From Cyanidioschyzon merolae (lineage: Eukaryota), in the NCBI GenBank assembly GCA_000091205.1, contig AP006489.2: a stretch of DNA of 64,000 nucleotides; one strand, written 5' to 3'. Of the stretch, positions 18,074 to 34,874 are shown piece after piece (within the stretch, counting starts at the first letter, position 1; the number at the start of each line of letters is the position of its first letter). The notes under the pieces are model-generated. The model saw only the letters and a program-made list of their open reading frames with translations. It ran no database searches and had not been told where the DNA came from. The position numbers and the translations under genes were made by a program.

Positions 18074-18340
18074 ACAAGCTTGAAACGGATGCGCTCCCAT
18101 TTATCGAGAGCGCACGAGACTGGACGGATGTGTGGTACGCCCGCCTGCCTGCGATTGCGGGTATGAAAAGAGAGATGCCTTTCGGGCAAACCATTGGACT
18201 GGCCTCGGATCAGCATCAGCGTCGAGACGGTACTGACTTGTGAGTTTGAAAGAAGGGCTGACGCTGCAGGAACGCGAAGGTAAAGCTGAATCTGCGAGGT
18301 TGCAGCGGGTTCATGCATGTTCATCTACACCAGTGACAGA

Positions 18341-19703
18341 TTCAAATGGGACGCTAAACGGCTCACTCTGTTCCTGTCTGTCGATTTCTTCGGAATTCAT
18401 TCCTGATTCGTACAGCAGTCTCGACGTGAGAAGCGCGACAATAACGGCTGGCGGATTCATGCCGAATCCAGGAATGCTCCATCGACTTGTCAAGCTGGCG
18501 CGGTGGGTGCTCTCTCTCTCTCTCTCTCCGATCGAATACGTTCTATCGTCAGAGCAGAGATCACTCGCAACGCCCTCGAACACACACTCATACAATAACC
18601 GGTATTCGGATGCAATGCATAGGCGCCCAGGCAGCCACGCTTCTCCTGTACGCACACATAGCATACCCAGAGCAGGCGTGCTTCAAGTCTCCCGTCGTTC
18701 CGGTTCGAGGCAACTCGTGTACACGCGAACGACCAACGCTGGCACGACAAGACGAAACGCTTGACGTCACCGCTTGACGACCTGTTCACAAGCTCGTGCC
18801 CGACGGTCGCTGAACTCGTCACGGCACACGACTGAGTCGCTTCGGAACGCAAGTGCTGCTCGCTGGGTGGCCACGGACGTCACGGCACTCGACAGCGGCA
18901 CGCTGTCTGTGAGGGGATATGCGGCCAGAGGCTTCCGTCTCTGGTGTTGCCGTGCAAAAGCGTCTCGGACTCGGACTGGAGTCATCGCGGTGATCGCTTC
19001 GAGTGGAGAACGCGTCACCGTTTTGCGCCAAAAGCGAACGTAGACGCTTCAGGAGTTCTGGACGTGTTCGCCAGCGCGAGTATTGCCTGCAGCACCTGGT
19101 TCATCGTGGAAACCTGCGTCTCCGTTCCAGAAATCCTCTACGGAACGGAGACGCATGTACCTGCTCGTGTGCAACGGACACGGCACTCGACGAAGCGATC
19201 ACCCGGAAGAAGCGCGTGACAGTAGCGTGCCTCACTAGTCGGAGAAGCGGCGGATGCATCGACGGTAACCTTCGTCGCCCGTCCAGGGCGTGGACCTGGC
19301 GCTGAAGCGAGCGTTCACGAGACACAGGGTAGCGCTCTTAGGAGGGCGTGTGATGCTGGCGGTGCAGCGGTGCAGTGGTGCAGCGGTGCAGCGGTGCATA
19401 TCTGGGTACACCCGGTCATAGCTTAGAGTGATCGCTGCGACCAGCGTACCGCGGCCGTATACGAGGAAGACGAGCGTAGCCATCCGAGTGCAGGTCGCAA
19501 GACAGGTGATCACTTTTCCAGTTGCTGACGGCTGCTCTGAAGACGACAGATAGACCTGTGTACTTCGAGCCGGAAACACACAGTTAGAGAATGAAGCAGT
19601 CCAAGGAAAAGACCCCAGAGGCTTCCGTAGATGATGCAACTGTAAACAGGTCGAAACATTTGTGCATCCACACGTGTTGGAGCACCCGTTTCCTTCCAGT
19701 CTG
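18341..19703 (+). mobile_element. Interspersed element family A, copy 1 (~1.36 kb, non-coding, non-autonomous; class unknown)
   Basis: Near-identical over its full length to the copies at 23605-24967 and 28150-29523. It begins ttcaaatgggacgctaaacggctcac and ends ggagcacccgtt(t/c)ccttccagtctg. It contains a (CT)n run, an 8-bp minisatellite (gcagcggt/gcagtggt x4-5) and the conserved core at about 18880-19025. No long ORF with recognisable homology. Confidence 0.65.
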
Positions 19704-22296: not shown

Positions 22297-23604
22297 GAAC
22301 GCACTGAATCACCACAGCTTTCAGTGGATTCACGTTCAACACGCTGGACAGTGCAGGAACGCTCTGCCCCAATGACATCGCTTCGAATCAATGTGGGGAC
22401 GGGTTCGCGGATACTTGCATTCTCGGTCGATGACAGAAGCGGTATGCAACCTGTGGCACTTCTCTACCTATGCTCTGATGGTTCATGTTCGGCATAGATA
22501 GGTATGGTTGGTGAGGTTATCCCAGGGATTCGAGCTTGCCGCAAATCGGCTGGTGATATCTCGTATTCTGCGAGGCCGATTTTTTGCGGCTCTTGCTGTT
22601 GACACCACCACCACCGTCCGAGTAGCTGCTGTTGCGAACATCTCGGTCTGTGGAAGCACCTGGCTGGGGTAAACGTGAAAAGGCCACGGAATCGTCTAAA
22701 AGGATTTTGTAGACGGAACTTGAACACATATCTGAAACGTGTTTGCCAAGCGAACCTGTGCCCTTGACGTGATGCTGAACCAAGTGCGTACATCGCACGG
22801 TACCTGGCCGGTTTTCAGCATCGATCGATTCTTGTACCCCGAAAAAGGGAGTACGCGTCCGTGCACAAGGCATCAACGTTTAGAGAGCATCTGCATAGAC
22901 CGCAGCTTAACCCCTTCAACCGAGTCGTTCGCCTCGTTCGGATTCCAGGTACGACTCCTGCCGTGTTGACTGTCGAAAACATTCCATGATCGCTTGCTTA
23001 TCAGTACCGCATGTGGCATTACCAATGCAGGTACCTGTTCCGTGAGCCTAATCGTCTACAATCGCACGAGGCACAAGTTTGGTGCCTTGTTTTATATCCG
23101 ATTATCCGGAATGTTGAGCGGTATTGCATGCTCTAGCGCTGGCGAGCATGGACAACGACGATAGACAGAATACCTCGCTGGAATCGGTTATGGAGTGTAC
23201 GCTTTCCTCGCGACGCATAGCGCTCAGATGTCGTGGTGAGGCATACGCTGCGGAGTGTGGTCCCATGCAGACTGCCGGTTAGGATCGGCGTAAACGACGC
23301 ATTTTCGATCCAGTCTCGAAGAAAGGAAGACATTCAGATGATCCGTCGTGGAAACGGGTGCATTTCTGTTTCTTATCAGTCTTTCGAAGCTTTTCGATTG
23401 TACCGTTAGAGATCGCAACGATAGAGGCTACCTCTCACCGGATTGTGAACGGATGTGCGGCATCGACACCACAGGCACAGCTGTTATGCTCGTCTATACA
23501 ATCGCTACGTATCCCAGTTCCAGTCGCAGAACTGCTCCGTTCCCAGCAGAGAGCGATCCATGCTCCGCTCTGATGGTGTTCCAGTGCTCTGAAGCACTGT
23601 AAGA

Positions 23605-24967
23605 TTCAAATGGGACGCTAAACGGCTCACTCTGTTCCTGTCTGTCGATTTCTTCGGAGTTCATTCCTGATTCGTACTGCAGTCTCGACGTGAGAAGCGC
23701 GACAATAACGGCTGGCGGATTCATGCCGAATCCAGGAATGCTCCATCGACTTGTCAAGCTGGCGCGGTGGGTGCTCTCTCTCTCTCTCTCTCCGATCGAA
23801 TACGTTCTATCGTCAGAGCAGAGATCACTCGCTACGCCCTCGAACACACACTCATACAATAACCGATATTCGGATGCAATGCATAGGCGCCCAGGCAGCC
23901 ACGCTTCTCCTGTACGCACACGTAGCATACCCAGAGCAGGTGTGCTTCAAGTCTCCCGTCGTTCCGGTTCGAGGCAACTCGTGTACACGCGAACGACCAA
24001 CGCTGGCACGACAAGACGAAACGCTTGACGTCACCGCTTGACGACCTGTTCACAAGCTCGTGCCCGACGGTCGCTGAACTCGTCACCGCACACGACTGAG
24101 TCGCTTCGGAACGCAAGTGCTGCTCGCTGGGTGGCCACGGACGTCACGGCACTCGACAGCGGCACGCTGTCTGTCAGGGGATATGCGGCCAGAGGCTTCC
24201 GTCTCTGGTGTTGCCGTGCAAAAGCGTCTCGGACTCGGACTGGAGTCATCGCGGTGATCGCTTCGAGTGGAGAACGCGTCACCGTTTTGTGCCAAAAGCG
24301 AACGTAGACGCTTCAGGAGTTCTGGACGTGTTCGCCAGCGCGAGTATTGCCTGCAGCACCTGGTTCATCGTGGAAACCTGCGTCTCCGTTCCAGAAATCC
24401 TCTACGGAACGGAGACGCATGTACCTGCTCGTGTGCAACGGACACGGCACTCGACGAAGCGATCACCCGGAAGAAGCGCGTGACAGTAGCGTGCCTCACT
24501 AGTCGGAGAAGCGGCGGGTGCATCGACGGTAACCTTCGTCGCCCGTCCAGGGCGTGGACCTGGCGCTGAAGCGAGCGTTCACGAGACACAGGGCAGCGCT
24601 CTTAGGAGGGCGTGTGATGCTGGCGGTGCAGCGGTGCAGTGGTGCAGCGGTGCAGCGGTGCACAACTGGGTACACCCGGTCATAGCCTAGAGTGATCGCT
24701 GCGACCAGCGTACCGCGGCCGTATACGAGGAAGACGAGCGTAGCCATCCGAGTGCAGGTCGCAAGACAGGTGATCACTTTTCCAGTTGCTGACGGCTGCT
24801 CTGAAGACGACAGATAGACCTGCGTACTTCGAGCTGGAAACACACAGTTAGAGAATGAAGCAGTCCAAGGAAAAGACCCCAGAGGCTTCCGTAGATGATG
24901 CAACTGTAAACAGGTCGAAACATTTGTGCATCCACACGTGTTGGAGCACCCGTTCCCTTCCAGTCTG
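23605..24967 (+). mobile_element. Interspersed element family A, copy 2
   Basis: Collinear and almost identical (only a handful of substitutions by eye) to 18341-19703, in the same orientation. It carries the same (CT)n run, minisatellite and core module (about 24145-24290). Confidence 0.65.
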
Positions 24968-25430: not shown

Positions 25431-27689
25431 TTGCCCGTGGCTCTTAGGAAGCGTTTCGGTCGGCACGGGGCGTTTCCCATGACTGACGAGCACCAGTCGG
25501 GCACAGCGTGTCAGAGCTCAGCGAGGAAACCGCCCAAGGGAGGTCTGCGACGAAGCACACGCAGCAGGATTCGGGAAGCTCCACCCGAAGACTCACCAGC
25601 GTTGCCGACGCCGCGTACGCCGCAATGGCAGGCCAAGGCGCCCGCTGAAACGCTCTGGAGCCCTTGGCGGGATCAAATAGAGACTGGTTTGGGGTTCGAA
25701 ACGCCGAAAAACTCCGGTAAAGGGGATCGTCGTCGAGGTCACCGTCGAGAGCAGCGGACCAGGCCGGCAGCCGACAAGCGACGCGTTCGCTGGGCGGCCT
25801 CAGTGCGTGGGAAACGCCCGCCGCTGCTCTCGATAGCTGTATCGGTGGCTGGCTGGATCACGCTGGTTATCGTTGCGGTACTTCTTCTGGTGCGTGGGCA
25901 AAAGTGGCAGCAACAGCAAGTGCTGTCGCTTCGGGCGACAACTCGGAGGTACGCGTACGCCACCCTGCTCTGTGATGATGAACGCATGCTCCGGGCAGTT
26001 GCGGCATTGGTGCACTCGCTTCGAGTCCGAGCAAACACCTCCTACCCGATCTTGGTGCTTACCACACCCAACTTGTCAACAGCGGCGTCACAGCATCTGG
26101 AGGCGCTTGGAGCAACAGTAATACGGCGCGAGCCGCTGCCGTATCCGTTTGCCCTGAACGCAGCCCGGCTCCGCGATAACAAACCCTGTCGCTATGCCAA
26201 GTTACACCTGTGGTCGTTAACAACATACGAAAAGATTGTGTTCCTTGATGGAGACACATTGGTTTTGGCACCAATTGATGATCTCTTTGAAAAGTATGAT
26301 GCGCTCGCTGCTGCTCCAGACCTCTATCCGGAGACGTTCAACTCCGGCGTGATGGTGCTCGAACCGCGCCACGATGTGTACGCCTCGATGTTGGCACGAT
26401 ATCGGGAGACACCCTCGTACAACTTGGGCGATCAGGGCTTTCTGAATAGTTTCTTTGGTGAGCAATGGAGAGCGAACCCGAAGCGTTTCCACTTGCCCCT
26501 GGAATACAACACGCTGCTGAAGCTGCGGGAGACCATTCTCTGGGCGAGCCTCCAGCGCCGCGTCCGTGTTGTCCATTTTACTGGAGAAACCAAACCGTGG
26601 AGCTGGCACTTGACCAATTTTCGTGACTGGGATCGTCATATCGATCCTGTCTTCTACTACGAATGGATTCAGATCGACCGATCAGCACGCAACTTATCAC
26701 TTGATGAACCGCACTGGGCCCGTTGCGCTCTGGAAGCCCAGACGCTAGCCATGCACAACGGGAGCCTTGGACAACGCTTTCCGCTTCGCGATCGCTACAG
26801 TGTGGTGCTCAGCACGTATAGCCGCGATGATTTGCTACATAAGCTGTTGCGCATTCATTATCGCCCTGGCCTGTTCCCTGGAAAACCCAAGTCGCGTCAG
26901 AAGGAACAAACATCGGACGCGAGTGCGCTGATCGATAAGGTATTCATTGTGTGGCATGATCCGCAGCGAACACCACCGCCGGACCTTCTTCGTAATCTGC
27001 CGCCGGATCGATTCCTGCTTGTTCAACAGCAGCAGGACTCGCTGAATAACCGCTTTAATCCTCTGGGGCCCGCTCTGCGCACACGAGCAGTGCTCATCGT
27101 CGATGACGATATTCGCATTCATCACGAGGATGCAGCATTCGCTTTCCGAGTCTGGCAGGATAATCCGAATGCGCTGGTTGGCTTCTTCCCGCGTTTTCAC
27201 CGGCGGCATCCTCAGACCGGAACGTATGAGTACCACATTGCTGAGCCCGTGGATCACGATGCGAACGCGAGTCACAGACAGTTCCGTCGCTACTCGATTG
27301 TGCTAACCAAGCACATGTTCATGCGCGCTGACTTTCTCTTCTACTATCGCTGCCTTCTGCCGGATGAACGCATTCATGCTTATGTCGACGAGCATCGGAA
27401 CTGCGAGGATATCGCTTGTCAGTGCATGGTGACCAGTATGGGTGGATCCGCTCCCATCGCCGTTCGTGCGGTGCACCCGGTCGAGGACTACGGCACCCCG
27501 GGTGTAGGCGTTGCCGGTGGTATCAGCGCATCACGGTCTCATTTGGGGTCCCGTTCCCACTGCATTGCGACCTTTTTAGAGACGTTTTGGAAAGGTTCAA
27601 ATGCCCTTCTTTATAATGACGTAATCATGGAGCGTTTTGTGAAGATTCCGTTTGAGAAAAAGCGACTGCGGGACCTGGCGAAAACGTGA
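25431..27689 (+). CDS. Bifunctional glycosyltransferase: N-terminal GT8 (glycogenin-like, DxD) domain fused to a C-terminal GT64 (exostosin-like) domain, with a type II membrane anchor
   Basis: 752-aa ORF. TM segment LLSIAVSVAGWITLVIVAVLLLV near aa 125-150. GT8 motifs YATLLCDDE..., KLHLWSLTTYEKIVFLDGDTLVL, FNSGVMVLEP. GT64 block SLNNRFNPLGPALRTRAVLIVDDDIRIHHEDAAFAFRVWQDNPNALVGFFPR matches the plant GT64 consensus SLNNRF...KTRAVLELDDDI...FRVWRE.P..IVGFYPR. Confidence 0.75.
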   Translation: MPVALRKRFGRHGAFPMTDEHQSGTACQSSARKPPKGGLRRSTRSRIREAPPEDSPALPTPRTPQWQAKAPAETLWSPWRDQIETGLGFETPKNSGKGDRRRGHRREQRTRPAADKRRVRWAASVRGKRPPLLSIAVSVAGWITLVIVAVLLLVRGQKWQQQQVLSLRATTRRYAYATLLCDDERMLRAVAALVHSLRVRANTSYPILVLTTPNLSTAASQHLEALGATVIRREPLPYPFALNAARLRDNKPCRYAKLHLWSLTTYEKIVFLDGDTLVLAPIDDLFEKYDALAAAPDLYPETFNSGVMVLEPRHDVYASMLARYRETPSYNLGDQGFLNSFFGEQWRANPKRFHLPLEYNTLLKLRETILWASLQRRVRVVHFTGETKPWSWHLTNFRDWDRHIDPVFYYEWIQIDRSARNLSLDEPHWARCALEAQTLAMHNGSLGQRFPLRDRYSVVLSTYSRDDLLHKLLRIHYRPGLFPGKPKSRQKEQTSDASALIDKVFIVWHDPQRTPPPDLLRNLPPDRFLLVQQQQDSLNNRFNPLGPALRTRAVLIVDDDIRIHHEDAAFAFRVWQDNPNALVGFFPRFHRRHPQTGTYEYHIAEPVDHDANASHRQFRRYSIVLTKHMFMRADFLFYYRCLLPDERIHAYVDEHRNCEDIACQCMVTSMGGSAPIAVRAVHPVEDYGTPGVGVAGGISASRSHLGSRSHCIATFLETFWKGSNALLYNDVIMERFVKIPFEKKRLRDLAKT

Positions 27690-28149: not shown

Positions 28150-29523
28150 ATGTATCGGGTTCAAACGGGACGCTAAACGGCTCACTCTGTTCCTGTCTGT
28201 CGATTTCTTCGGAGTTCATTCCTGATTCGTACTGCAGTCTCGACGTGAGAAGCGCGACAATAACGGCTGGCGGATTCATGCCGAATCCAGGAATGCTCCA
28301 TCGACTTGTCAAGCTGGCGCGGTGGGTGCGCTCTCTCTCTCTCTCTCCGATCGAATACGTTCTATCGTCAGAGCAGAGATCACTCGCTACGCCCTCGAAC
28401 ACACACTCATACAATAACCGATATTCGGATGCAATGCATAGGCGCCCAGGCAGCCACGCTTCTCCTGTACGCACACGTAGCATACCCAGAGCAGGCGTGC
28501 TTCAAGTCTCCCGTCGTTCCGGTTCGAGGCAACTCGTGTACACGCGAACGACCAACGCTGGCACGACAAGACGAAACGCTTGACGTCACCGCTTGACGAC
28601 CTGTTCACAAGCTCGTGCCCGACGGTCGCTGAACTCGTCACGGCACACGACTGAGTCGCTTCGGAACGCAAGTGCTGCTCGCTGGGTGGCCACGGACGTC
28701 ACGGCACTCGACAGCGGCACGCTGTCTGTCAGGGGATATGCGGCCAGAGGCTTCCGTCCCTGGTGTTGCCGTGCAAAAGCGTCTCGGACTCGGACTGGAG
28801 TCATCGCGGTGATCGCTTCGAGTGGAGAACGCGTCACCGTTTTGTGCCAAAAGCGAACGTAGACGCTTCAGGAGTTCTGGACGTGTTCGCCAGCGCGAGT
28901 ATTGCCTGCAGCACCTGGTTCATCGTGGAAACCTGCGTCTCCGTTCCAGAAATCCTCTACGGAACGGAGACGCATGTGCCTGCTCGTGTGCAACGGACAC
29001 GGCACTCGACGAAGCGATCACCCGGAAGAAGCGCGTGACAGTGGCGTGCCTCACTAGTCGGAGAAGCGGCGGGTGCATCGACGGTAACCTTCGTCGCCCG
29101 TCCAGGGCGTGGACCTGGCGCTGAAGCGAGCGTTCACGAGACACAGGGTAGCGCTCTTGGGAGGGCGTGTGATGCTGGCGGTGCAGCGGTGCAGTGGTGC
29201 AGCGGTGCAGCGGTGCATATCTGGGTACACCCGGTCATAGCCTAGAGTGATCGCTGCGACCAGCGTACCGCGACCGTATACGAGGAAGACGAGCGTAGCC
29301 ATCCGAGTGCAGGTCGCAAGACAGGTGATCACTTTTTCCAGTTGCTGACGGCTGCTCTGAAGACGACAGATAGACCTGCGTACTTCGAGCCGGAAACACA
29401 CAGTTAGAGAATGAAGCAGTCCAAGGAAAAGACCCCAGAGGCTTCCGTAGATGATGCAACTGTAAACAGGTCGAAACATTTGTGGATCCACACGTGTTGG
29501 CGCACCCGTTCCCTTCCAGTCTG
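28150..29523 (+). mobile_element. Interspersed element family A, copy 3
   Basis: Same sequence, orientation and internal landmarks as copies 1 and 2. The first bases differ slightly (ttcaaacggga versus ttcaaatggga). The core module lies at about 28700-28845. Confidence 0.65.
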
Positions 29524-30558: not shown

Positions 30559-31350
30559 GAGCGGTACAATCGACTGAAGAGCATGCGCTTAGGCCATTCG
30601 AACGCTCGTTCACGCGCTCTGCATGAAGCGAACACCGCATGCCGCTCCGGTCGACAAGGCGCTCACAGTGTCGAAACGAGTCCTGACACACACATTGCAC
30701 CTGTTGCTTTATGTCGTGGCTCACGTCATGCCTGGCAGTAGAGACCAGCGAGCACTGGAAAAGTCAGACCGCATCGCATCTGCTCTTCCGCGTATAAGCT
30801 GTCTTGTGGAACGAAATTGTGGACGAAAAATGCCAGAGGTATGTGGACTGCTGGCAGCCCTGCTTGACAACCACCTAGGAACAGTTGCTTGACGACATGC
30901 GTCGAGGTGAGCGTTGCTAGGCAAGACCTGCTCGAGTGCGAAGCATCGCGATCCCTCACGACATCCTATATATTATGATTACTTGGTAGCGAACAATGCT
31001 TCTACTGAACCGTGAGCGTCTACATCGCATTTGACAAGATGAAAGACGTATTTAACTGGACAAAATCAGGGAGAATCGGCTTGCCCGATGAGCGCCTGAG
31101 CACCAATCGCAGCGGTGCACGATTTGATCGCTTTCGAGTCGTGGAAAGCGGTTTGGTCCGAGGGCCGAATCGCGGCCCCTTGAATGAGATGCCATGACGC
31201 GCTTCAACCCTGATTGCGTTCATGAACGATGCTATCGCTTTGGCGGTTTGGATGCAACCACGCAACTGAATCACCGCTAGGTCTGATGTCGTCGGAACGT
31301 TCGCTTGACTCCTCTTTTCGAATAGCGAGTTGCACTTTGTTGCTTGTTCA

Positions 31351-31878
31351 TAGACAGGTCTAGCATTTTGTTGGAGTGATCGCTTACGGAATGAGCCGAG
31401 TACTTGTCCCCACTGAAATATTATGATTTAGAAACTCGTAGACAGGTCTAGCATTTTGTTGGAGTGATCGCTTACGGAATGAGCCGAGTACTTGTCCCAA
31501 CTGAAATATTATGATTTAGAAACTCGTAGACAGGTCTAGCATTTTGTTGGAGTGATCGCTTACGGAATGAGCCGAGTACTTGTCCCCACTGAAATATTAT
31601 GATTTAGAAACTCGTAGACAGGTCTAGCATTTTGTTGGAGTGATCGCTTACGGAATGAGCCGAGTACTTGTCCCAACTGAAATAATATGATTTAGAAACT
31701 CGTAGACAGGTCTAGCATTTTGTTGGAGTGATCGCTTACGGAATGAGCCGAGTACTTGTCCCAACTGAAATAATATGATTTAGAAACTCGTAGACAGGTC
31801 TAGCATTTTGTTGGAGTGATCGCTTACGGAATGAGCCGAGTACTTGTCCCAATTGGAATATTATGATTTATAAACGGA
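31351..31878. repeat. Tandem satellite of six 88-bp units (tagacaggtctagcattttgttggagtgatcgcttacggaatgagccgagtacttgtccc[c/a]actgaaata[t/a]tatgatttagaaactcg)
   Basis: The tagacaggtc motif recurs at 31351, 31439, 31527, 31615, 31703 and 31791, an exact 88-bp period. Units are head-to-tail with no spacers. The last unit degenerates (aattggaatattatgatttataaacgg). Confidence 0.9.
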
Positions 31879-34874
31879 CAAATTGGATCACCTGTTGATC
31901 GACACGCAGCGGGCTCCCGGTGAAGCACTCGCTTACGCTTACCCATCCGTATCTCTTCGTTGCCGGTCGTATGAACGGTACGGATTCTTCACAGGCTGTT
32001 CCCTCTTTGATAATAGCTCCTAGAGATAGTATGGAGTGAAATGATTTGACAAGGAGGCTATCATTTATACTGAGTTTCATACGTGCCGTTTGAGGTGCAC
32101 GACGTTCCAAACACCGACAACGAGAAGGATGGTGCATCCATATGCTGACCATACAGGGACAACCTTGAACGGATAAGGTCTTGTTTCGCTGCCTAGCAGC
32201 GACGGCTTCAAGTCTGGTCGGGGTACTTCTCCAGTCTACGGATTATATTCCTTTTGTCGAACGTCTTCATGAAAAACGAAAAAAAAACACAAAAAGTAGC
32301 GCTGGTACATGCGGTACAGAATGAGGTGCTCTGCGTACAAGGCGGTGCAGACCTGACGGTTCTCGTGGATGGTCTTTTTTTGGTTCCTTTTCGTTGGCAG
32401 GCAACCCTTCGGTGCGCTTCGATGCAAAAAGAACTTTTCCGATTCACGAAACCGACGGCTCAAATGCCGATGACGCTTCACGTGATGCCGGTGCTGGACA
32501 GGTTCTCTCCTCAATACGTGGCTGCCTGGCTCCTGTACGTTCATGCGTTGGACAGCGAGCGGAACTTTATGGTGAGTAGAGCATCACTAGCATCAGCTGG
32601 TGCCATTGCTCGCGCGCATCCTATGATGACTTCCGGTAGGTCTGTCTCTAGTACTGAACGCTCGACCAACAGACTCTCTTGTGGTAAGCACTGCGCTGAC
32701 ACCTCCATCGAGCCGTCATGTTCACTGACGTAAAAAATTCTGGCACGTGCGGAACCACGAGTCGAAGACGATGCCGTTATCCATGAGTGCGGTTCTTGTC
32801 GCCGCTAAAGCGCGAGTATCTCTTCGTGCTTGTGATGCCACATCCTCATGCAGTCAGTTTACGTGCGAGTCTCGCGATGGAGACACATCTGGACGTGCGG
32901 CTCGAGTCACTGCCCTCCGTTTATCGACGACGAGGATGCAGGGGAACGCCATCTGGAGCTCCACGCCCGACGGCGATAAGCGTAGGAGGATTCGAGTGTA
33001 GCACTTGTGACCAGGCAGCTTCACGCGTTGCGCACTTTGTCGTCCATGCTCATCTGCTCGGGGCGTTATCTTGCGCAGCGTAGAGGTCTCCACTGTACAC
33101 ATGTGGCGCCCCGCAGCGCGGTCCTGCAAAGAATCACATGAACAACGCTTTTGCGTACGCATCGCCTTGAGCAAAAGCGCTATTCCACAAATGAATGCCC
33201 TTAGCGTAAACGGAAATCCACCAAGGTAGCAAAAGCCTCTACGGCAATGCGTCTCCAGAGCGTGCGTTCCTGGCGATGCCTAGGCTTCGGCAGTGCCAGC
33301 ATTGCCTCTGAGGTCCAGCGACACCTGTCACCGCGTGGATCCCTCTCCCACTATCTGTAGATGCGGTCCTGCGGAAACAAAAGCAAACTGATCCGGCTCT
33401 AGTATGAAGCCAGCGCAACAGCGAGGCATCCATCAGCGAGCTCGAGTGCACCACGGATATGAACATGGATAAAATGCGACATTCGACGCAGTTTTGGTCT
33501 GCTCAAGTGTCGACACCTCAAACCAATATCTAGATGGGCGCCCGAACACCATTACCAGCCGTACCCCGCAAAGCGCCTCCCCAGGCCTGCGGTTTGCGGA
33601 TGACTCGCGTCGCAGCAAGCAGCTCTGGCAGGCCCGCCACCCAAACAGTCGCTGAGACTAGTTTCCAGGCATCAAAGAACGATTGTTCTGGGGATTCAGG
33701 TACAAAGAAGGCGTATCTTAAGGAACTTGGGTCTCTTTCCTGCTCCTCCATGGCACCCTCGCATAAAAGAGAACCGCGGTTCAATGCATGTATCTTATTC
33801 TATTTCCCAGCACGAGGGCTGCGCGCGCTTTTACGGGACGTCGAATCGTTCACATGAGCCAGAGGATCCCAAATAGCACGATGGTTATCCCAATTGATGT
33901 GCGCTTCCATTACGGAGCGCCCTACCTTCAGGTGCAGCTCCACGAGCACGATCGACCAATTCTTGCGGAGAGCACGCTGCTTCCGTACGAAGCTCACGGT
34001 ACCAAGCGACTGGTAGGAGCGCTCGCTATGAAACCGCACGAACACAGCGCATTTCTGCCATATAGTTTACTACGGACAAGAGCGCAAGAACCACGTGTAC
34101 ACGCACTCATAGTTCACTAGAACCGCCCCAGTGGGGCCACTTGAAACACACAGGCACCACTGTAGAACTTTTCCGTCGAGTACCTCAACGCGCTGCGTAC
34201 TGACGGGTGAACCACCGGCTTTCCGACACAGCATCGTTTCGAGGATGCACAAAGACGCTTTCCGGCGGTGACGGCGCTACTCAGTCAGTCAGTCTGTCTG
34301 TCTGTCAGTCAGTCAGTCTGTCTGCCACGAACCCGAGTATCAATGCCTGCACCTCGACAGTGCAACCTAGGTCGGCGTCAGCATCTGCTGCTACCGCTGG
34401 TGTATACTTGTGTGCGTGTGTGTGTGTGCAGTTATTGATGCTTGCCCGCGCTAGCCTAGACTTCTATAAAGCAGAACATCACTTTGCATGTGCAGTCGCA
34501 GTTCAAGTATCTGACGCTGAGAGCGGAGCGCCGTACAAACCGCGCGCCGCTCTGTGTTTTCGAAACGACGGCGAGTCACTTTCGATGCTGAGGGCCTGAA
34601 AGCTGCAGCTGCTTCGGGTCTGTTTCGGGAACCGACGCAACGGGTTGTAGGTGTTTCGCTCTGGACTGTCGGGAGGTTTTGCTACCTCAAGGACCTGGGC
34701 GTGGCAGGCGTGATAAGCAGAGCGCTTACCCTTACGCATTGCGTAGTCGCTCTAAAAAACTTGGGGTGTGCTCCAGGTCGAGATTTGTGAACTTGCCGTT
34801 CAAACCAAAGCCGTCAGAATAGCGTGTGGACAGGAAAGCAATACAACGCGACTAGTACCACCACCTAACAAGAG

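What the first reader, a model, noticed from the sequence alone, without database searches (positions are those of the whole stretch)
25431..27689. Single polypeptide fusing a GT8 (glycogenin-like) and a GT64 (exostosin-like) glycosyltransferase domain behind a type II membrane anchor
The N-terminal half has the GT8 DxD fold motifs (LDGDTLVL; FNSGVMVLEP). The C-terminal half matches the GT64 consensus with striking conservation (SLNNRF...TRAVL.VDDDI...FRVW...P...VGFFPR). Between the domains lies a WSWH-type linker (KPWSWHLTNFRDWDRHIDPVFYYEWIQ). Two-domain glycosyltransferases are known (e.g. LARGE: GT8+GT49; EXT: GT47+GT64), but a GT8+GT64 combination is unusual. It would be predicted to make a repeating alpha-linked disaccharide or to prime-and-extend a glycan on a protein or lipid acceptor.
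Basis: partly seen in the sequence, partly recalled or inferred. Interest (0 to 1): 0.6.

Follow-up and report, generated by a model that had tools for sequence, protein, structure and literature searches.

The report
Membrane-anchored GT8+GT64 two-domain glycosyltransferase
This red-alga gene really does encode one membrane-anchored protein with two sugar-adding enzyme domains (GT8 then GT64); the design is widespread in red algae and fungi but has never been studied biochemically, and the gene is very probably one published as a starch-priming "glycogenin", a label its anatomy does not fit.

Summary
One uninterrupted ORF (real start ATG 25479, 736 aa) encodes a basic tail, one signal-anchor helix, a GT8 domain (Pfam 69 bits; glycogenin-1 E 2e-35) and a GT64 domain (Pfam 158 bits; EXTL2 E 6e-24). 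Both DxD motifs are intact. The AF2 model has pLDDT 92 and pTM 0.90.

The window is Cyanidioschyzon merolae 10D chromosome 7. The protein is identical to BAM79674.1, "similar to glycogenin glucosyltransferase", and by inference is CMG174C (CmGLG2), published as a glycogenin whose overexpression doubles starch.

The fusion is not rare. Eighty-four of the 431 proteins retrieved have GT8 then GT64, from Cyanidiophyceae, five fungal lineages and a pelagophyte. One GenBank record is already named "families GT8 + GT64". Streptophytes carry a reversed GT64-GT8-GT8 form.

The anatomy argues against a classical glycogenin. The type II anchor is conserved, the acceptor tyrosine is absent, and the C-terminus is a GT64 domain.

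The best reading is a Golgi/ER-lumenal bifunctional retaining transferase that builds an alpha-linked disaccharide unit, possibly on or next to glucuronic acid. In Rhodotorula the gene sits beside a GlcAT-like GT43 gene. Sugars and acceptor are unknown. It is a new variant of a known kind, of moderate interest.

The parts
25479..27689 (+). Complete CDS (736 aa plus stop) of the GT8+GT64 protein. It equals C. merolae 10D BAM79674.1 / XP_005535960.1 and is inferred to be locus CMG174C (CmGLG2).
   Evidence: ORF. Zero differences from P0012. Accessions. Chromosome 7 is 584,452 bp. CMG174C is the only chromosome-G member of the four published glycogenin-like genes.
25431..25478 (+). In-frame upstream extension from a TTG. 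This is an artefact of bacterial-code ORF calling and is not part of the protein.
   Evidence: One search lists a TTG start. The annotated protein and all close orthologs begin at the ATG (736 aa).
25479..25823 (+). N-terminal tail, aa 1-115. It is basic (net about +15), low-complexity, poorly conserved and predicted to be cytosolic.
   Evidence: Charge count. No conservation outside close relatives in alignment A1. pLDDT below 30. The median tail in the family is only 15 aa.
25824..25895 (+). Single transmembrane signal-anchor, aa 116-139 (LLSIAVSVAGWITLVIVAVLLLVR). Predicted type II orientation, with the N-terminus in the cytosol and the catalytic domains in the lumen.
   Evidence: Kyte-Doolittle maximum 2.75, flank charges +6 against +3. 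Modelled as a helix. The anchor is conserved in 31 of 44 complete family members, and 25 of those 31 have the more positive N-flank.
25938..26675 (+). GT8 (glycogenin-like, retaining GT-A) domain, aa 154-399.
   Evidence: Pfam PF01501 at 69 bits. Glycogenin-1 E 3e-36 with a residue-level alignment. Family HMM coordinates. Foldseek glycogenin target TM 0.71-0.82.
26247..26255 (+). GT8 DxD metal/nucleotide-sugar motif (D257-G-D259, within LDGDTLV).
   Evidence: Aligns with glycogenin MDADTLV. D257 and D259 are invariant in A1. Positions.
26514..26543 (+). Loop (aa 346-355, LLKLRETILW) that aligns with the glycogenin self-glucosylation loop (SISIY194SYLPAF). It contains no tyrosine.
   Evidence: HMMER alignment. 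MAFFT column count over 57 fused proteins: Leu 22, Tyr 10, Phe 7, Met 6; C. merolae has Leu.
26772..27674 (+). GT64 (EXTL2/GMT1-like, retaining GT-A) domain, aa 432-732. It includes a lineage-specific low-complexity insert at about aa 463-487.
   Evidence: Pfam PF09258 at 158 bits. EXTL2 E 4e-25, EXT2 and EXTL3. Family HMM coordinates. Foldseek EXTL2 target TM 0.81-0.84. The insert is absent from Galdieria and fungi and is the only low-pLDDT block in that region.
27102..27110 (+). GT64 DDD motif (D542-D544, within LIVDDDI).
   Evidence: Aligns with EXTL2 LMVDDDT. Invariant in A1. Positions.

Best explanation
The gene encodes a type II membrane-anchored bifunctional retaining glycosyltransferase of the secretory pathway (Golgi or ER lumen). 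It is not a cytosolic starch primer. Both GT-A domains look catalytically competent and pack into one rigid unit. The proposed mechanism has two consecutive alpha-glycosylations on one acceptor. The glycogenin-like GT8 domain transfers an alpha-linked hexose or hexuronic acid from a UDP-sugar. The GT64 domain adds an alpha-linked HexNAc or mannose, most likely onto a glucuronic acid, because every characterised GT64 enzyme (EXT1/2, EXTL2/3, plant GINT1 and GMT1) uses GlcA as its acceptor (established knowledge). The product would be an alpha,alpha-disaccharide unit on a glycolipid or glycoprotein, or a short repeat of it. This parallels the plant GIPC core pathway, in which IPUT1 (GT8) acts before GMT1/GINT1 (GT64).

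Shown here: the architecture, the motif integrity, the conserved anchor, the wide distribution, a reversed-order fusion in streptophytes, and clustering with other glycosyltransferase genes in Rhodotorula.

Inferred: lumenal location, order of action, identity of the sugars and acceptor, and that the reported starch increase on CmGLG2 overexpression is indirect.
For: Both domains are well above the Pfam cut-offs and match solved structures. DGD, GDQG, HFxG..KPW, DDD and NCEDIA are all intact, and all but two of their residues (G258, I645) fall in invariant columns of A1. The AF2 model of aa 140-736 has pLDDT 92.0 and pTM 0.90, so a fixed two-domain body is predicted.

The signal-anchor shows the positive-inside pattern in C. 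merolae and across the family: 31 of 44 members have the anchor, 25 of those 31 have the more positive N-flank, and the median tail is 15 aa.

The architecture is conserved across Cyanidiophyceae, chytrids, Mucoromycota, Basidiomycota, Saccharomycotina, a metchnikovellid and a pelagophyte.

A second arrangement, GT64-GT8-GT8, occurs in Chara and Diphasiastrum. It appears independent: its GT64 groups with plant GT64-C3 at 96% bootstrap, and its GT8 domains score lower on the fusion's GT8 profile (80-154 bits) than animal glycogenin does (182-192 bits). Two independent fusions of the same two families argue for functional coupling.

In Rhodotorula glutinis and R. babjevae the gene lies in a cluster with a GT43 gene whose best PDB hits are animal beta1,3-glucuronyltransferases (E 5e-16), plus a second GT8 gene and a second GT64 gene. 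A polysaccharide pyruvyl-transferase gene is adjacent in another Microbotryomycete.

Plant GIPC synthesis uses GT8 then GT64 (PMC9113257; IPUT1 being GT8 is from my own knowledge).
Against: No biochemical data exist for any member in the literature I could search. The donor sugars cannot be read from sequence. The GT8 half is closest to true glycogenins and to ~269-aa GT8 proteins, a few of them from myxobacteria. No plant IPUT1/PGSIP appears in the top 120 hits, so the GIPC analogy is not an orthology. The GT64 half falls outside the 100%-supported GMT1 clade, and deep nodes of my NJ tree are weak (18-30%). The Rhodotorula cluster comes from two close relatives, and neighbourhoods in Galdieria, Jimgerdemannia, Umbelopsis and C. 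merolae show nothing comparable. Topology is predicted, not measured. Overexpression of CMG174C reportedly raises starch two-fold, which the authors read as glycogenin function. I found no report of GIPC or GlcA-glycans in C. merolae.
Confidence: 0.55

Rival explanations
1. It is a genuine glycogenin (CmGLG2) that self-glucosylates and primes cytosolic floridean starch, as published. On this view the GT64 domain and the anchor are accessory or regulatory.
For: The GT8 half is 36-39% identical to rabbit and human glycogenin-1 (E 2e-35) with catalytic residues conserved. Reviews report that CMG174C clusters with yeast and rabbit glycogenin and that its overexpression doubles starch. The gene lies on chromosome 7 and carries the glycogenin-like name.
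Against: A signal-anchor with positive-inside orientation should place the domain in the lumen, away from cytosolic starch, and this holds across the family. There is no Tyr in the loop that aligns with glycogenin Tyr194/195, and the column is not conserved in 57 fused proteins. The C-terminus is a conserved, motif-intact GT64 domain, not a glycogen-synthase-binding tail. The fused gene also occurs in a metchnikovellid microsporidian and next to other secretory-type GT genes in Rhodotorula. A two-fold overexpression effect is weak evidence. The primary paper could not be read.
Confidence: 0.15
2. It is a LARGE/EXT-type co-polymerase. The two domains alternate to build a long polysaccharide of a repeating alpha-linked disaccharide on a protein or lipid primer.
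For: It shares the overall design of LARGE1 (GT8+GT49) and EXT1/2 (GT47+GT64): type II anchor, two active GT domains and a rigid two-domain model (established knowledge of those enzymes). In Rhodotorula it is clustered with a GlcAT-like GT43 gene, a weakly LARGE-like GT8 gene (E 0.0015) and another GT64 gene. In a related yeast a polysaccharide pyruvyl-transferase gene is adjacent, which suggests an acidic polysaccharide pathway.
Against: No such polymer is known to me in the wall-less C. merolae. All characterised alternating co-polymerases of this type pair one inverting and one retaining activity, whereas both domains here belong to retaining families (established knowledge). Nothing in the sequence distinguishes one round of synthesis from many.
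Confidence: 0.15
3. It is specifically a fused IPUT1+GMT1/GINT1 equivalent that builds the Hex(NAc)-GlcA head group on inositol-phosphoceramide (GIPC) in one polypeptide.
For: The same two CAZy families act consecutively in plant GIPC synthesis (for GT64; my own knowledge for IPUT1 being GT8). Plant GMT1 proteins are the best-scoring named, characterised relatives of the GT64 half (200-206 bits against 185 for a nematode protein named EXTL2). Non-animal GT64 domains group together to the exclusion of EXTL2/EXT2 at 76% bootstrap. In Amphiamblys a GDP-mannose pyrophosphorylase gene lies 93 bp downstream. Fungi and plants both make IPC-based lipids.
Against: The GT8 half is in the glycogenin clade, not the PGSIP/IPUT1 clade. 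Reviews place the other paralog, CmGLG1, with plant PGSIPs. The GT64 half lies outside the GMT1 clade. I found no report of GIPC in Cyanidioschyzon. Adjacency in a compact microsporidian genome is weak evidence.
Confidence: 0.12
4. The fusion is an artefact: two adjacent genes joined by a sequencing or assembly error.
For: An early Cyanidiococcus annotation split the ortholog into two proteins (KAF6000819 and KAF6000820).
Against: The sequence comes from the finished C. merolae 10D genome. The same continuous frame is found in environmental variants, three other Cyanidiophyceae genera, many fungi and a pelagophyte. The inter-domain segment is conserved and confidently modelled. The newer Cyanidiococcus model is a single 735-aa protein.
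Confidence: 0.01

Closest known systems
CmGLG2 (CMG174C) of Cyanidioschyzon merolae, published as a glycogenin
   Same: Very probably the same gene. It is on chromosome 7 (584,452 bp), is named 'similar to glycogenin glucosyltransferase', and is the only chromosome-G member of the four published glycogenin-like genes.
   Different: The reviews I could read describe it only as a glycogenin-type glucosyltransferase that clusters with yeast and rabbit glycogenin. They do not mention the signal-anchor, the GT64 domain or the missing acceptor Tyr. The locus-tag identity is inferred; the primary paper was not available.
Glycogenin-1 (GYG1; GT8; PDB 1LL2, 3T7O)
   Same: Same GT-A fold. Identity is 36-39%. 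DxD, GDQG and HFxGxxKPW motifs are conserved.
   Different: Glycogenin is soluble and cytosolic, self-glucosylates Tyr194/195 and ends in a glycogen-synthase-binding tail. This protein is membrane-anchored, has no Tyr in the aligned loop and ends in a GT64 domain.
EXTL2 and the GT64 domains of EXT1/2 and EXTL3 (alpha1,4-N-acetylhexosaminyltransferases)
   Same: Same fold (target TM 0.81-0.84). DDD and NCEDIA motifs are conserved. Type II secretory-pathway enzymes.
   Different: Only 26-27% identity. It is partnered with GT8, not GT47. It groups with non-animal GT64 proteins (76% bootstrap). Donor and acceptor are unknown.
Plant GIPC head-group enzymes: IPUT1 (GT8), then GMT1 or GINT1 (GT64)
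   Same: The same pair of CAZy families acts consecutively in the Golgi. GMT1 is the best-scoring characterised relative of the GT64 half.
   Different: The plant enzymes are separate polypeptides. The GT8 half here is glycogenin-clade, not PGSIP/IPUT1-clade. The GT64 half is outside the GMT1 clade.
LARGE1/2 (GT8+GT49) and EXT1/2 (GT47+GT64) bifunctional Golgi glycosyltransferases
   Same: Type II anchor followed by two catalytic GT domains in one chain, with one of the two families shared in each case.
   Different: The domain pairing differs. Both domains here belong to retaining families, so an alternating alpha/beta polymer like matriglycan or heparan is not expected.
Streptophyte GT64-GT8-GT8 proteins (Chara braunii GBG76892.1; Diphasiastrum complanatum KAJ7298729.1)
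   Same: The same two families fused behind an N-terminal anchor.
   Different: Reversed order and an extra, divergent GT8 domain. The GT64 domain belongs to a plant-specific clade with GT64-C3 (96% bootstrap), so the fusion is probably independent. These proteins are also uncharacterised.

Membership tests
CAZy GT8 / Pfam PF01501 | Profile match above the curated cut-off | tested here: met
   69.3 bits against a 24.3 cut-off, E 5e-19.
CAZy GT8 / Pfam PF01501 | GT-A fold with a DxD motif and the HxxGxxKPW metal-binding His motif | tested here: met
   DGD at 257-259 and HFTGETKPW at 366-374 align with glycogenin DAD and HFLGQTKPW. Foldseek target TM is 0.71-0.82 to glycogenin.
CAZy GT64 / Pfam PF09258 | Profile match above the curated cut-off | tested here: met
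   158.2 bits against a 21.3 cut-off, E 3e-46.
CAZy GT64 / Pfam PF09258 | GT-A fold with the DDD motif and the NC(E/D)DIA motif of EXTL2 | tested here: met
   DDD at 542-544 and NCEDIA at 641-646 align with EXTL2. Foldseek target TM is 0.81-0.84.
Glycogenin (functional class, self-priming of glycogen/starch) | Acceptor tyrosine (Tyr194/195) in the loop after the YN motif | tested here: not met
   The aligned loop LLKLRETILW has no Tyr. In 57 fused proteins the column is Leu 22, Tyr 10, Phe 7, Met 6.
Glycogenin (functional class, self-priming of glycogen/starch) | Soluble cytosolic protein, in the same compartment as glycogen/starch synthase | tested here: not met
   An N-terminal signal-anchor with positive-inside orientation is present and conserved in the family. 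This is a prediction only, with no localisation data.
Glycogenin (functional class, self-priming of glycogen/starch) | C-terminal glycogen-synthase-interacting segment | tested here: not met
   PDB matches to glycogenin, including chains from the GYG1-GYS1 complex, stop at about residue 223 of glycogenin. The region after GT8 is a GT64 domain.
Glycogenin (functional class, self-priming of glycogen/starch) | UDP-glucose donor and self-glucosylation activity | not testable with these tools
   This needs an enzyme assay. Only an overexpression phenotype is reported second-hand.
Bifunctional two-domain Golgi glycosyltransferases (LARGE/EXT type) | Type II anchor plus two catalytically intact GT domains in one chain | tested here: met
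Bifunctional two-domain Golgi glycosyltransferases (LARGE/EXT type) | Product is an alternating co-polymer | not testable with these tools
   No product data exist.
GIPC head-group glycosyltransferases (IPUT1; GMT1/GINT1) | GT8 part belongs to the plant PGSIP6/IPUT1 clade | tested here: inconclusive
   No plant PGSIP/IPUT1 is among the top 120 profile hits, which are glycogenins and ~269-aa GT8 proteins, a few of them myxobacterial. Reviews place CmGLG2 with yeast and rabbit glycogenin and CmGLG1 with the PGSIPs. No IPUT1 reference sequence was available for a tree.
GIPC head-group glycosyltransferases (IPUT1; GMT1/GINT1) | GT64 part belongs to the GMT1 or GINT1 clade | tested here: not met
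   The GMT1 clade has 100% bootstrap and excludes the fusion. The fusion lies in a broader non-animal group (76%). GINT1 was not sampled.
GIPC head-group glycosyltransferases (IPUT1; GMT1/GINT1) | Acts on inositol-phosphoceramide | not testable with these tools
   No lipid data exist. I found no paper linking Cyanidioschyzon and GIPC.

The most novel reading that the evidence does not exclude
GT8+GT64 proteins are the synthase of a so-far undescribed alpha-linked, glucuronic-acid-associated glycan (on IPC lipids or on secretory proteins). This glycan would be shared by Cyanidiophyceae red algae, early-diverging and some dikaryan fungi, and some stramenopiles. The C. merolae 'glycogenin' CmGLG2 would then be mis-assigned, with its effect on starch being indirect. 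Independent fusions of the same two families in streptophytes would mark a conserved GT8-to-GT64 biosynthetic module that also underlies plant GIPC synthesis.
Probability: 0.3. Interest if true: 0.65.

Novelty: new variant of a known kind. Interest (0 to 1): 0.45.

Why it matters
First, it flags a probable functional mis-assignment in a model alga. CmGLG2 is cited as a second glycogenin and as a target for raising algal starch, yet its anatomy is that of a lumenal two-domain glycan synthase. That changes how the overexpression result should be read, and it can be tested directly in the genetically tractable C. merolae.

Second, it defines a widespread eukaryotic enzyme family with no characterised member: at least 84 GT8-then-GT64 proteins among those retrieved, plus a reversed form in streptophytes. 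Two independent fusions of GT8 with GT64, together with the plant IPUT1-to-GMT1/GINT1 pathway, suggest a recurrent GT8/GT64 partnership. That partnership could guide the discovery of new glycolipid or glycoprotein structures in fungi and algae. The Rhodotorula GT43-GT8-GT64-[GT8+GT64] gene cluster is a concrete place to look for the product.

Tried and rejected
- **Frameshift or two-gene artefact:** rejected. The frame is conserved in many taxa.
- **'WSWH linker' as a cytokine-receptor-like or flexible linker:** rejected. It is the glycogenin HFxGxxKPW motif followed by conserved helices.
- **Strict Rosetta-stone reading (GT8 = IPUT1 ortholog, GT64 = GMT1 ortholog):** not supported. I kept it only as an analogy.
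- **First AF2 run with a 7-sequence alignment:** unusable, pLDDT 37.8. A 133-sequence alignment fixed this.
- **AFDB50 fold search:** unavailable.
- **First tree script:** timed out. I redid it with numpy distances. Deep nodes remained unresolved, so I make no claim that the forward fusions are monophyletic.
- **Primary CmGLG2 and MDR1 papers:** not held.
- **Locus tags of neighbouring genes:** full-text and supplement searches found nothing. The CMG174C identity therefore rests on chromosome length, gene name and the published gene list.
- **Neighbourhood analysis outside Rhodotorula:** no consistent partner.
- **Recent-duplicate test:** tblastn of the fusion's domains against the Rhodotorula neighbours showed they are not recent duplicates.
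- **'Solo' fungal GT64 proteins as evidence of fission:** weakened. The Umbelopsis locus has GT8-like sequence just upstream.
Full report

Yes. The window holds one uninterrupted + strand ORF at 25431..27689. It is 752 aa when counted from a TTG under the bacterial code. The first ATG is at 25479 and gives 736 aa. Pfam finds Glyco_transf_8 (69.3 bits, E 5e-19) followed by Glyco_transf_64 (158.2 bits, E 3e-46), both far above their curated cut-offs. Against the PDB, the N-terminal half matches glycogenin-1 (E 2e-35) and Skp1 alpha-galactosyltransferase Gat1 (E 8e-30). The C-terminal half matches EXTL2 (E 6e-24), EXT2 and EXTL3. A Kyte-Doolittle scan finds a single hydrophobic segment at aa 116-139. 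Its N-flank charge is +6 and its C-flank charge is +3, and the 113-residue stretch before the hydrophobic region has a net charge of +15.

**2. What organism and gene is it?**

The neighbouring ORFs are eukaryotic housekeeping genes: proteasome RPN7, a RIO kinase, ThiC, an amidase, a LETM1-like protein, squalene synthase and an RNA polymerase largest subunit. Exact-sequence look-ups place RPN7, ThiC, the amidase and squalene synthase on a 584,452-bp contig of Cyanidioschyzon merolae 10D, as BAM79671-73 and BAM79676. The target protein is identical, with zero differences, to BAM79674.1 / XP_005535960.1 / UniProt M1V7C8, "similar to glycogenin glucosyltransferase".

Chromosome 7 of C. merolae is 584,452 bp (Nozaki et al. 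2007, PMC1955436), so the locus tag begins with CMG. Reviews list four glycogenin-like genes in this alga: CMK020C (CmGLG1), CMG174C (CmGLG2), CMR358C (MDR1) and CMJ262C (PDR1). Only one of them is on chromosome G. Residue 613 of this protein is Met, not the Ser613 phosphosite of CmGLG1. I therefore infer that this gene is CMG174C (CmGLG2). The reviews report that it clusters with yeast and rabbit glycogenin and that its overexpression raises starch about two-fold. I could not read the primary paper, so the identity is an inference, though a strong one.

**3. Is the architecture unusual?**

No. A word-indexed search found the same two-domain protein in Cyanidiococcus (71% identity), an unidentified relative (80%), Cyanidium (64%), Galdieria (44%) and Rhodotorula (35%). 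An exhaustive phmmer search of 1.84 billion cluster representatives gave 124 hits at E <= 1e-30, and dozens of them align in one stretch across query residues ~150-730.

I built HMMs from domain alignments A2 and A3 and scanned all 431 retrieved proteins. Eighty-four are GT8+GT64, and 97 carry both domains in some order. Named members are listed below.

| Organism | Group |
|---|---|
| Jimgerdemannia flammicorona | Mucoromycota |
| Rhizophlyctis rosea | chytrid |
| Microbotryomycetes sp. and Rhodotorula | Basidiomycota |
| Dipodascopsis tothii | Saccharomycotina |
| Amphiamblys sp. | metchnikovellid microsporidian |
| Pelagomonas calceolata | pelagophyte |

The Amphiamblys GenBank record is already titled "glycosyl transferase, families GT8 + GT64". 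A reversed arrangement, anchor-GT64-GT8-GT8, occurs in Chara braunii and the lycophyte Diphasiastrum. I found no paper that characterises any such protein.

**4. Anatomy**

With a 133-sequence alignment, AlphaFold2 models aa 140-736 at mean pLDDT 92.0 and pTM 0.90. A first run with 7 sequences failed at pLDDT 37.8. Foldseek against the PDB returns EXTL2 (target TM 0.81-0.84) and glycogenin (0.71-0.82). Among the 50 matches listed, the only ones spanning both halves are the GT47+GT64 exostosins, at rmsd 16-18 Å, so none shares this domain pairing.

The GT8 catalytic motifs are DGD 257-259, GDQG 317-320 and HFTG..KPW 366-374. The GT64 motifs are LNNRF 522, DDD 542-544 and NCEDIA 641-646. All are present, and all but two of their residues (G258, I645) fall in invariant columns of the seven-species alignment.

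The next ~25 residues are conserved (D383, W384 and W396 are invariant) and modelled as confident helices. The only poorly modelled internal stretch is a low-complexity insert at about aa 463-487. It is present only in the Cyanidioschyzon, Cyanidiococcus and Cyanidium group.

**5. Is it a glycogenin?**

Three defining features of glycogenin fail.

- **Acceptor tyrosine.** The glycogenin self-glucosylation loop (SISIY194SYLPAF) aligns with LLKLRETILW, which has no tyrosine. Across 57 complete fused proteins that column is Leu 22, Tyr 10, Phe 7 and Met 6.
- **Compartment.** The protein has an N-terminal signal-anchor. Of 44 complete Met-starting family members, 31 have a hydrophobic segment before the GT8 domain. 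In 25 of those 31 the N-flank is the more positive and in 1 the reverse, and the median tail is 15 aa. This is the classical type II Golgi glycosyltransferase layout. It puts the catalytic domains in the lumen, whereas floridean starch is cytosolic (established knowledge).
- **C-terminus.** It is a conserved, motif-intact GT64 domain, not a synthase-binding tail.

The topology is a prediction, and the overexpression phenotype is real data that I know only second-hand. I therefore keep the glycogenin reading as a rival at about 0.15.

**6. Subfamily placement**

The GT8 profile (A2) retrieves fused-family fragments at 210-302 bits. Below them is a plateau at ~182-196 bits made of ~269-aa GT8 proteins, a few of them named as myxobacterial (Minicystis, Byssovorax), and vertebrate glycogenin-1. 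No plant IPUT1/PGSIP is in the top 120.

The GT64 profile (A3) retrieves fused-family proteins and fragments at 333-366 bits. Stand-alone fungal GT64 proteins follow at about 250-318 bits. Plant GMT1 (GIPC mannosyltransferase 1) scores ~200-206 bits, and a nematode protein named EXTL2 scores 185.

An NJ tree of GT64 domains with 200 bootstraps gave these results:
- Non-animal GT64 domains group to the exclusion of EXTL2/EXT2 (76%).
- The GMT1 clade is well supported (100%) and excludes the fusion.
- The reversed plant fusions group with plant GT64-C3 (96%).
- The node joining the forward fusions is weak (18%).

The reversed fusions' GT8 domains score lower on the A2 profile (80-154 bits) than animal glycogenin does (182-192 bits). 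Together these results point to two independent fusions of GT8 with GT64.

The Umbelopsis "solo" GT64 gene has weak, colinear GT8-like coding sequence just upstream. The fungal "solo" forms may therefore be truncated gene models or decaying fusions.

**7. Genomic context elsewhere**

In Rhodotorula glutinis and R. babjevae the fused gene lies within ~12 kb of three other glycosyltransferase genes:
- a GT43 gene, whose best PDB hits are the animal beta1,3-glucuronyltransferases GlcAT-P, GlcAT-I and GlcAT-S (E 5e-16 to 8e-11);
- a 680-aa GT8 gene, with a weak hit to the LARGE1 GT8 domain (E 0.0015);
- a divergent GT64 gene.

These neighbours are not recent duplicates of the fusion's own domains.

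In another Microbotryomycete the adjacent gene is a polysaccharide pyruvyl-transferase. Dipodascopsis has a second GT64 gene in tandem. In Amphiamblys a GDP-mannose pyrophosphorylase gene lies 93 bp downstream. Galdieria has a GT14 "Branch" gene 2.5 kb upstream. Jimgerdemannia, Umbelopsis and C. merolae show nothing relevant.

The Rhodotorula cluster is the only strong contextual clue. Every characterised GT64 enzyme glycosylates a glucuronic acid (established knowledge; PMC9178029 for the EXT/EXTL enzymes; PMC9113257 for GMT and GINT). Taken together, these facts suggest a GlcA-containing product.

**8. Most likely mechanism**

I commit to a type II, lumenal, bifunctional retaining glycosyltransferase that performs two consecutive alpha-glycosylations. 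GT8 would add an alpha-hexose or alpha-hexuronate. GT64 would add an alpha-HexNAc or mannose, probably onto GlcA. The product would be a disaccharide unit on a glycolipid or glycoprotein. My confidence is about 0.55 for this general statement.

The more specific versions are each about 0.12-0.15: a GIPC head-group synthase analogous to IPUT1 followed by GMT1/GINT1, or a LARGE/EXT-like co-polymerase.

- **Shown:** architecture, motif integrity, conserved anchor, distribution, reversed fusion, Rhodotorula cluster.
- **Inferred:** compartment, order of action, sugars, acceptor.

**9. Novelty and verdict**

The gene itself is annotated and has apparently been studied under another label. The domain pairing is already visible in public annotation. 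Two-domain Golgi glycosyltransferases are a known kind (LARGE, EXT). What is new is that this particular pairing has no characterised member, and that the C. merolae representative seems to be carried in the literature as a glycogenin despite failing three of glycogenin's defining features. I rate it a new variant of a known kind, with interest about 0.45. It is a useful, testable correction and a lead into an unexplored glycan, but it is not a categorically new system.

Noticed in passing
window 18340-19703, 23604-24967, 28159-29523: Three direct copies of a ~1.37-kb element, 98-99% identical to each other, sit in three consecutive intergenic regions that flank the amidase gene and the GT8+GT64 gene (spacing 5264 and 4555 bp). 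They probably belong to the known C. merolae interspersed repetitive element: 253 copies, about 5% of the genome, with a truncated ORF weakly similar to WSSV WSV486 (Nozaki 2007). The copies here are shorter than the reported 3.2-kb average.
   Followed up: partly
window 31260-31963: A tandem array with an 88-bp period, about 8 units at 73-98% identity, lies in the long intergenic region downstream of the GT8+GT64 gene. That stretch also has the lowest GC content in the window, about 0.50.
   Followed up: no
L001 3299-12523 (Rhodotorula glutinis BAABUY010000144.1); L003 3322-12552 (R. babjevae): A glycosyltransferase gene cluster: GT43 (similar to animal beta1,3-glucuronyltransferases), a 680-aa GT8 protein with an extra DDD-containing C-terminal region that has no Pfam match, a divergent GT64, and the GT8+GT64 fusion. 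It is a candidate biosynthetic cluster for an unknown GlcA-containing glycan.
   Followed up: partly
Proteins P0098 (Chara braunii GBG76892.1), P0100 (Diphasiastrum complanatum KAJ7298729.1) and environmental relatives: Streptophytes encode type II proteins with the reversed order GT64-GT8-GT8. The second GT8 domain is divergent. They are annotated only as hypothetical proteins.
   Followed up: partly
L005 9424-10138 (Umbelopsis sp. AD052 JAIXMS010000011.1): Weak, colinear GT8-like coding similarity lies immediately upstream of a gene annotated as a stand-alone GT64. The gene model may be truncated, or the GT8 half may be decaying in Mucoromycotina.
   Followed up: partly
window 25479-27689 compared with environmental variants P0001, P0009-P0011, P0014, P0015: All the listed full-length hot-spring metagenome variants of this protein carry Ala at residue 299, where strain 10D has Asp. 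Their other substitutions are confined to the N-terminal tail (aa 85-108), which fits a weakly constrained cytosolic tail.
   Followed up: no
L008 10001-12969 (Amphiamblys sp. MKPU01000038.1): In this compact microsporidian genome a GDP-mannose pyrophosphorylase gene begins 93 bp after the GT8+GT64 gene. This could hint at a GDP-Man donor, as in plant GMT1, or it could be chance adjacency.
   Followed up: no
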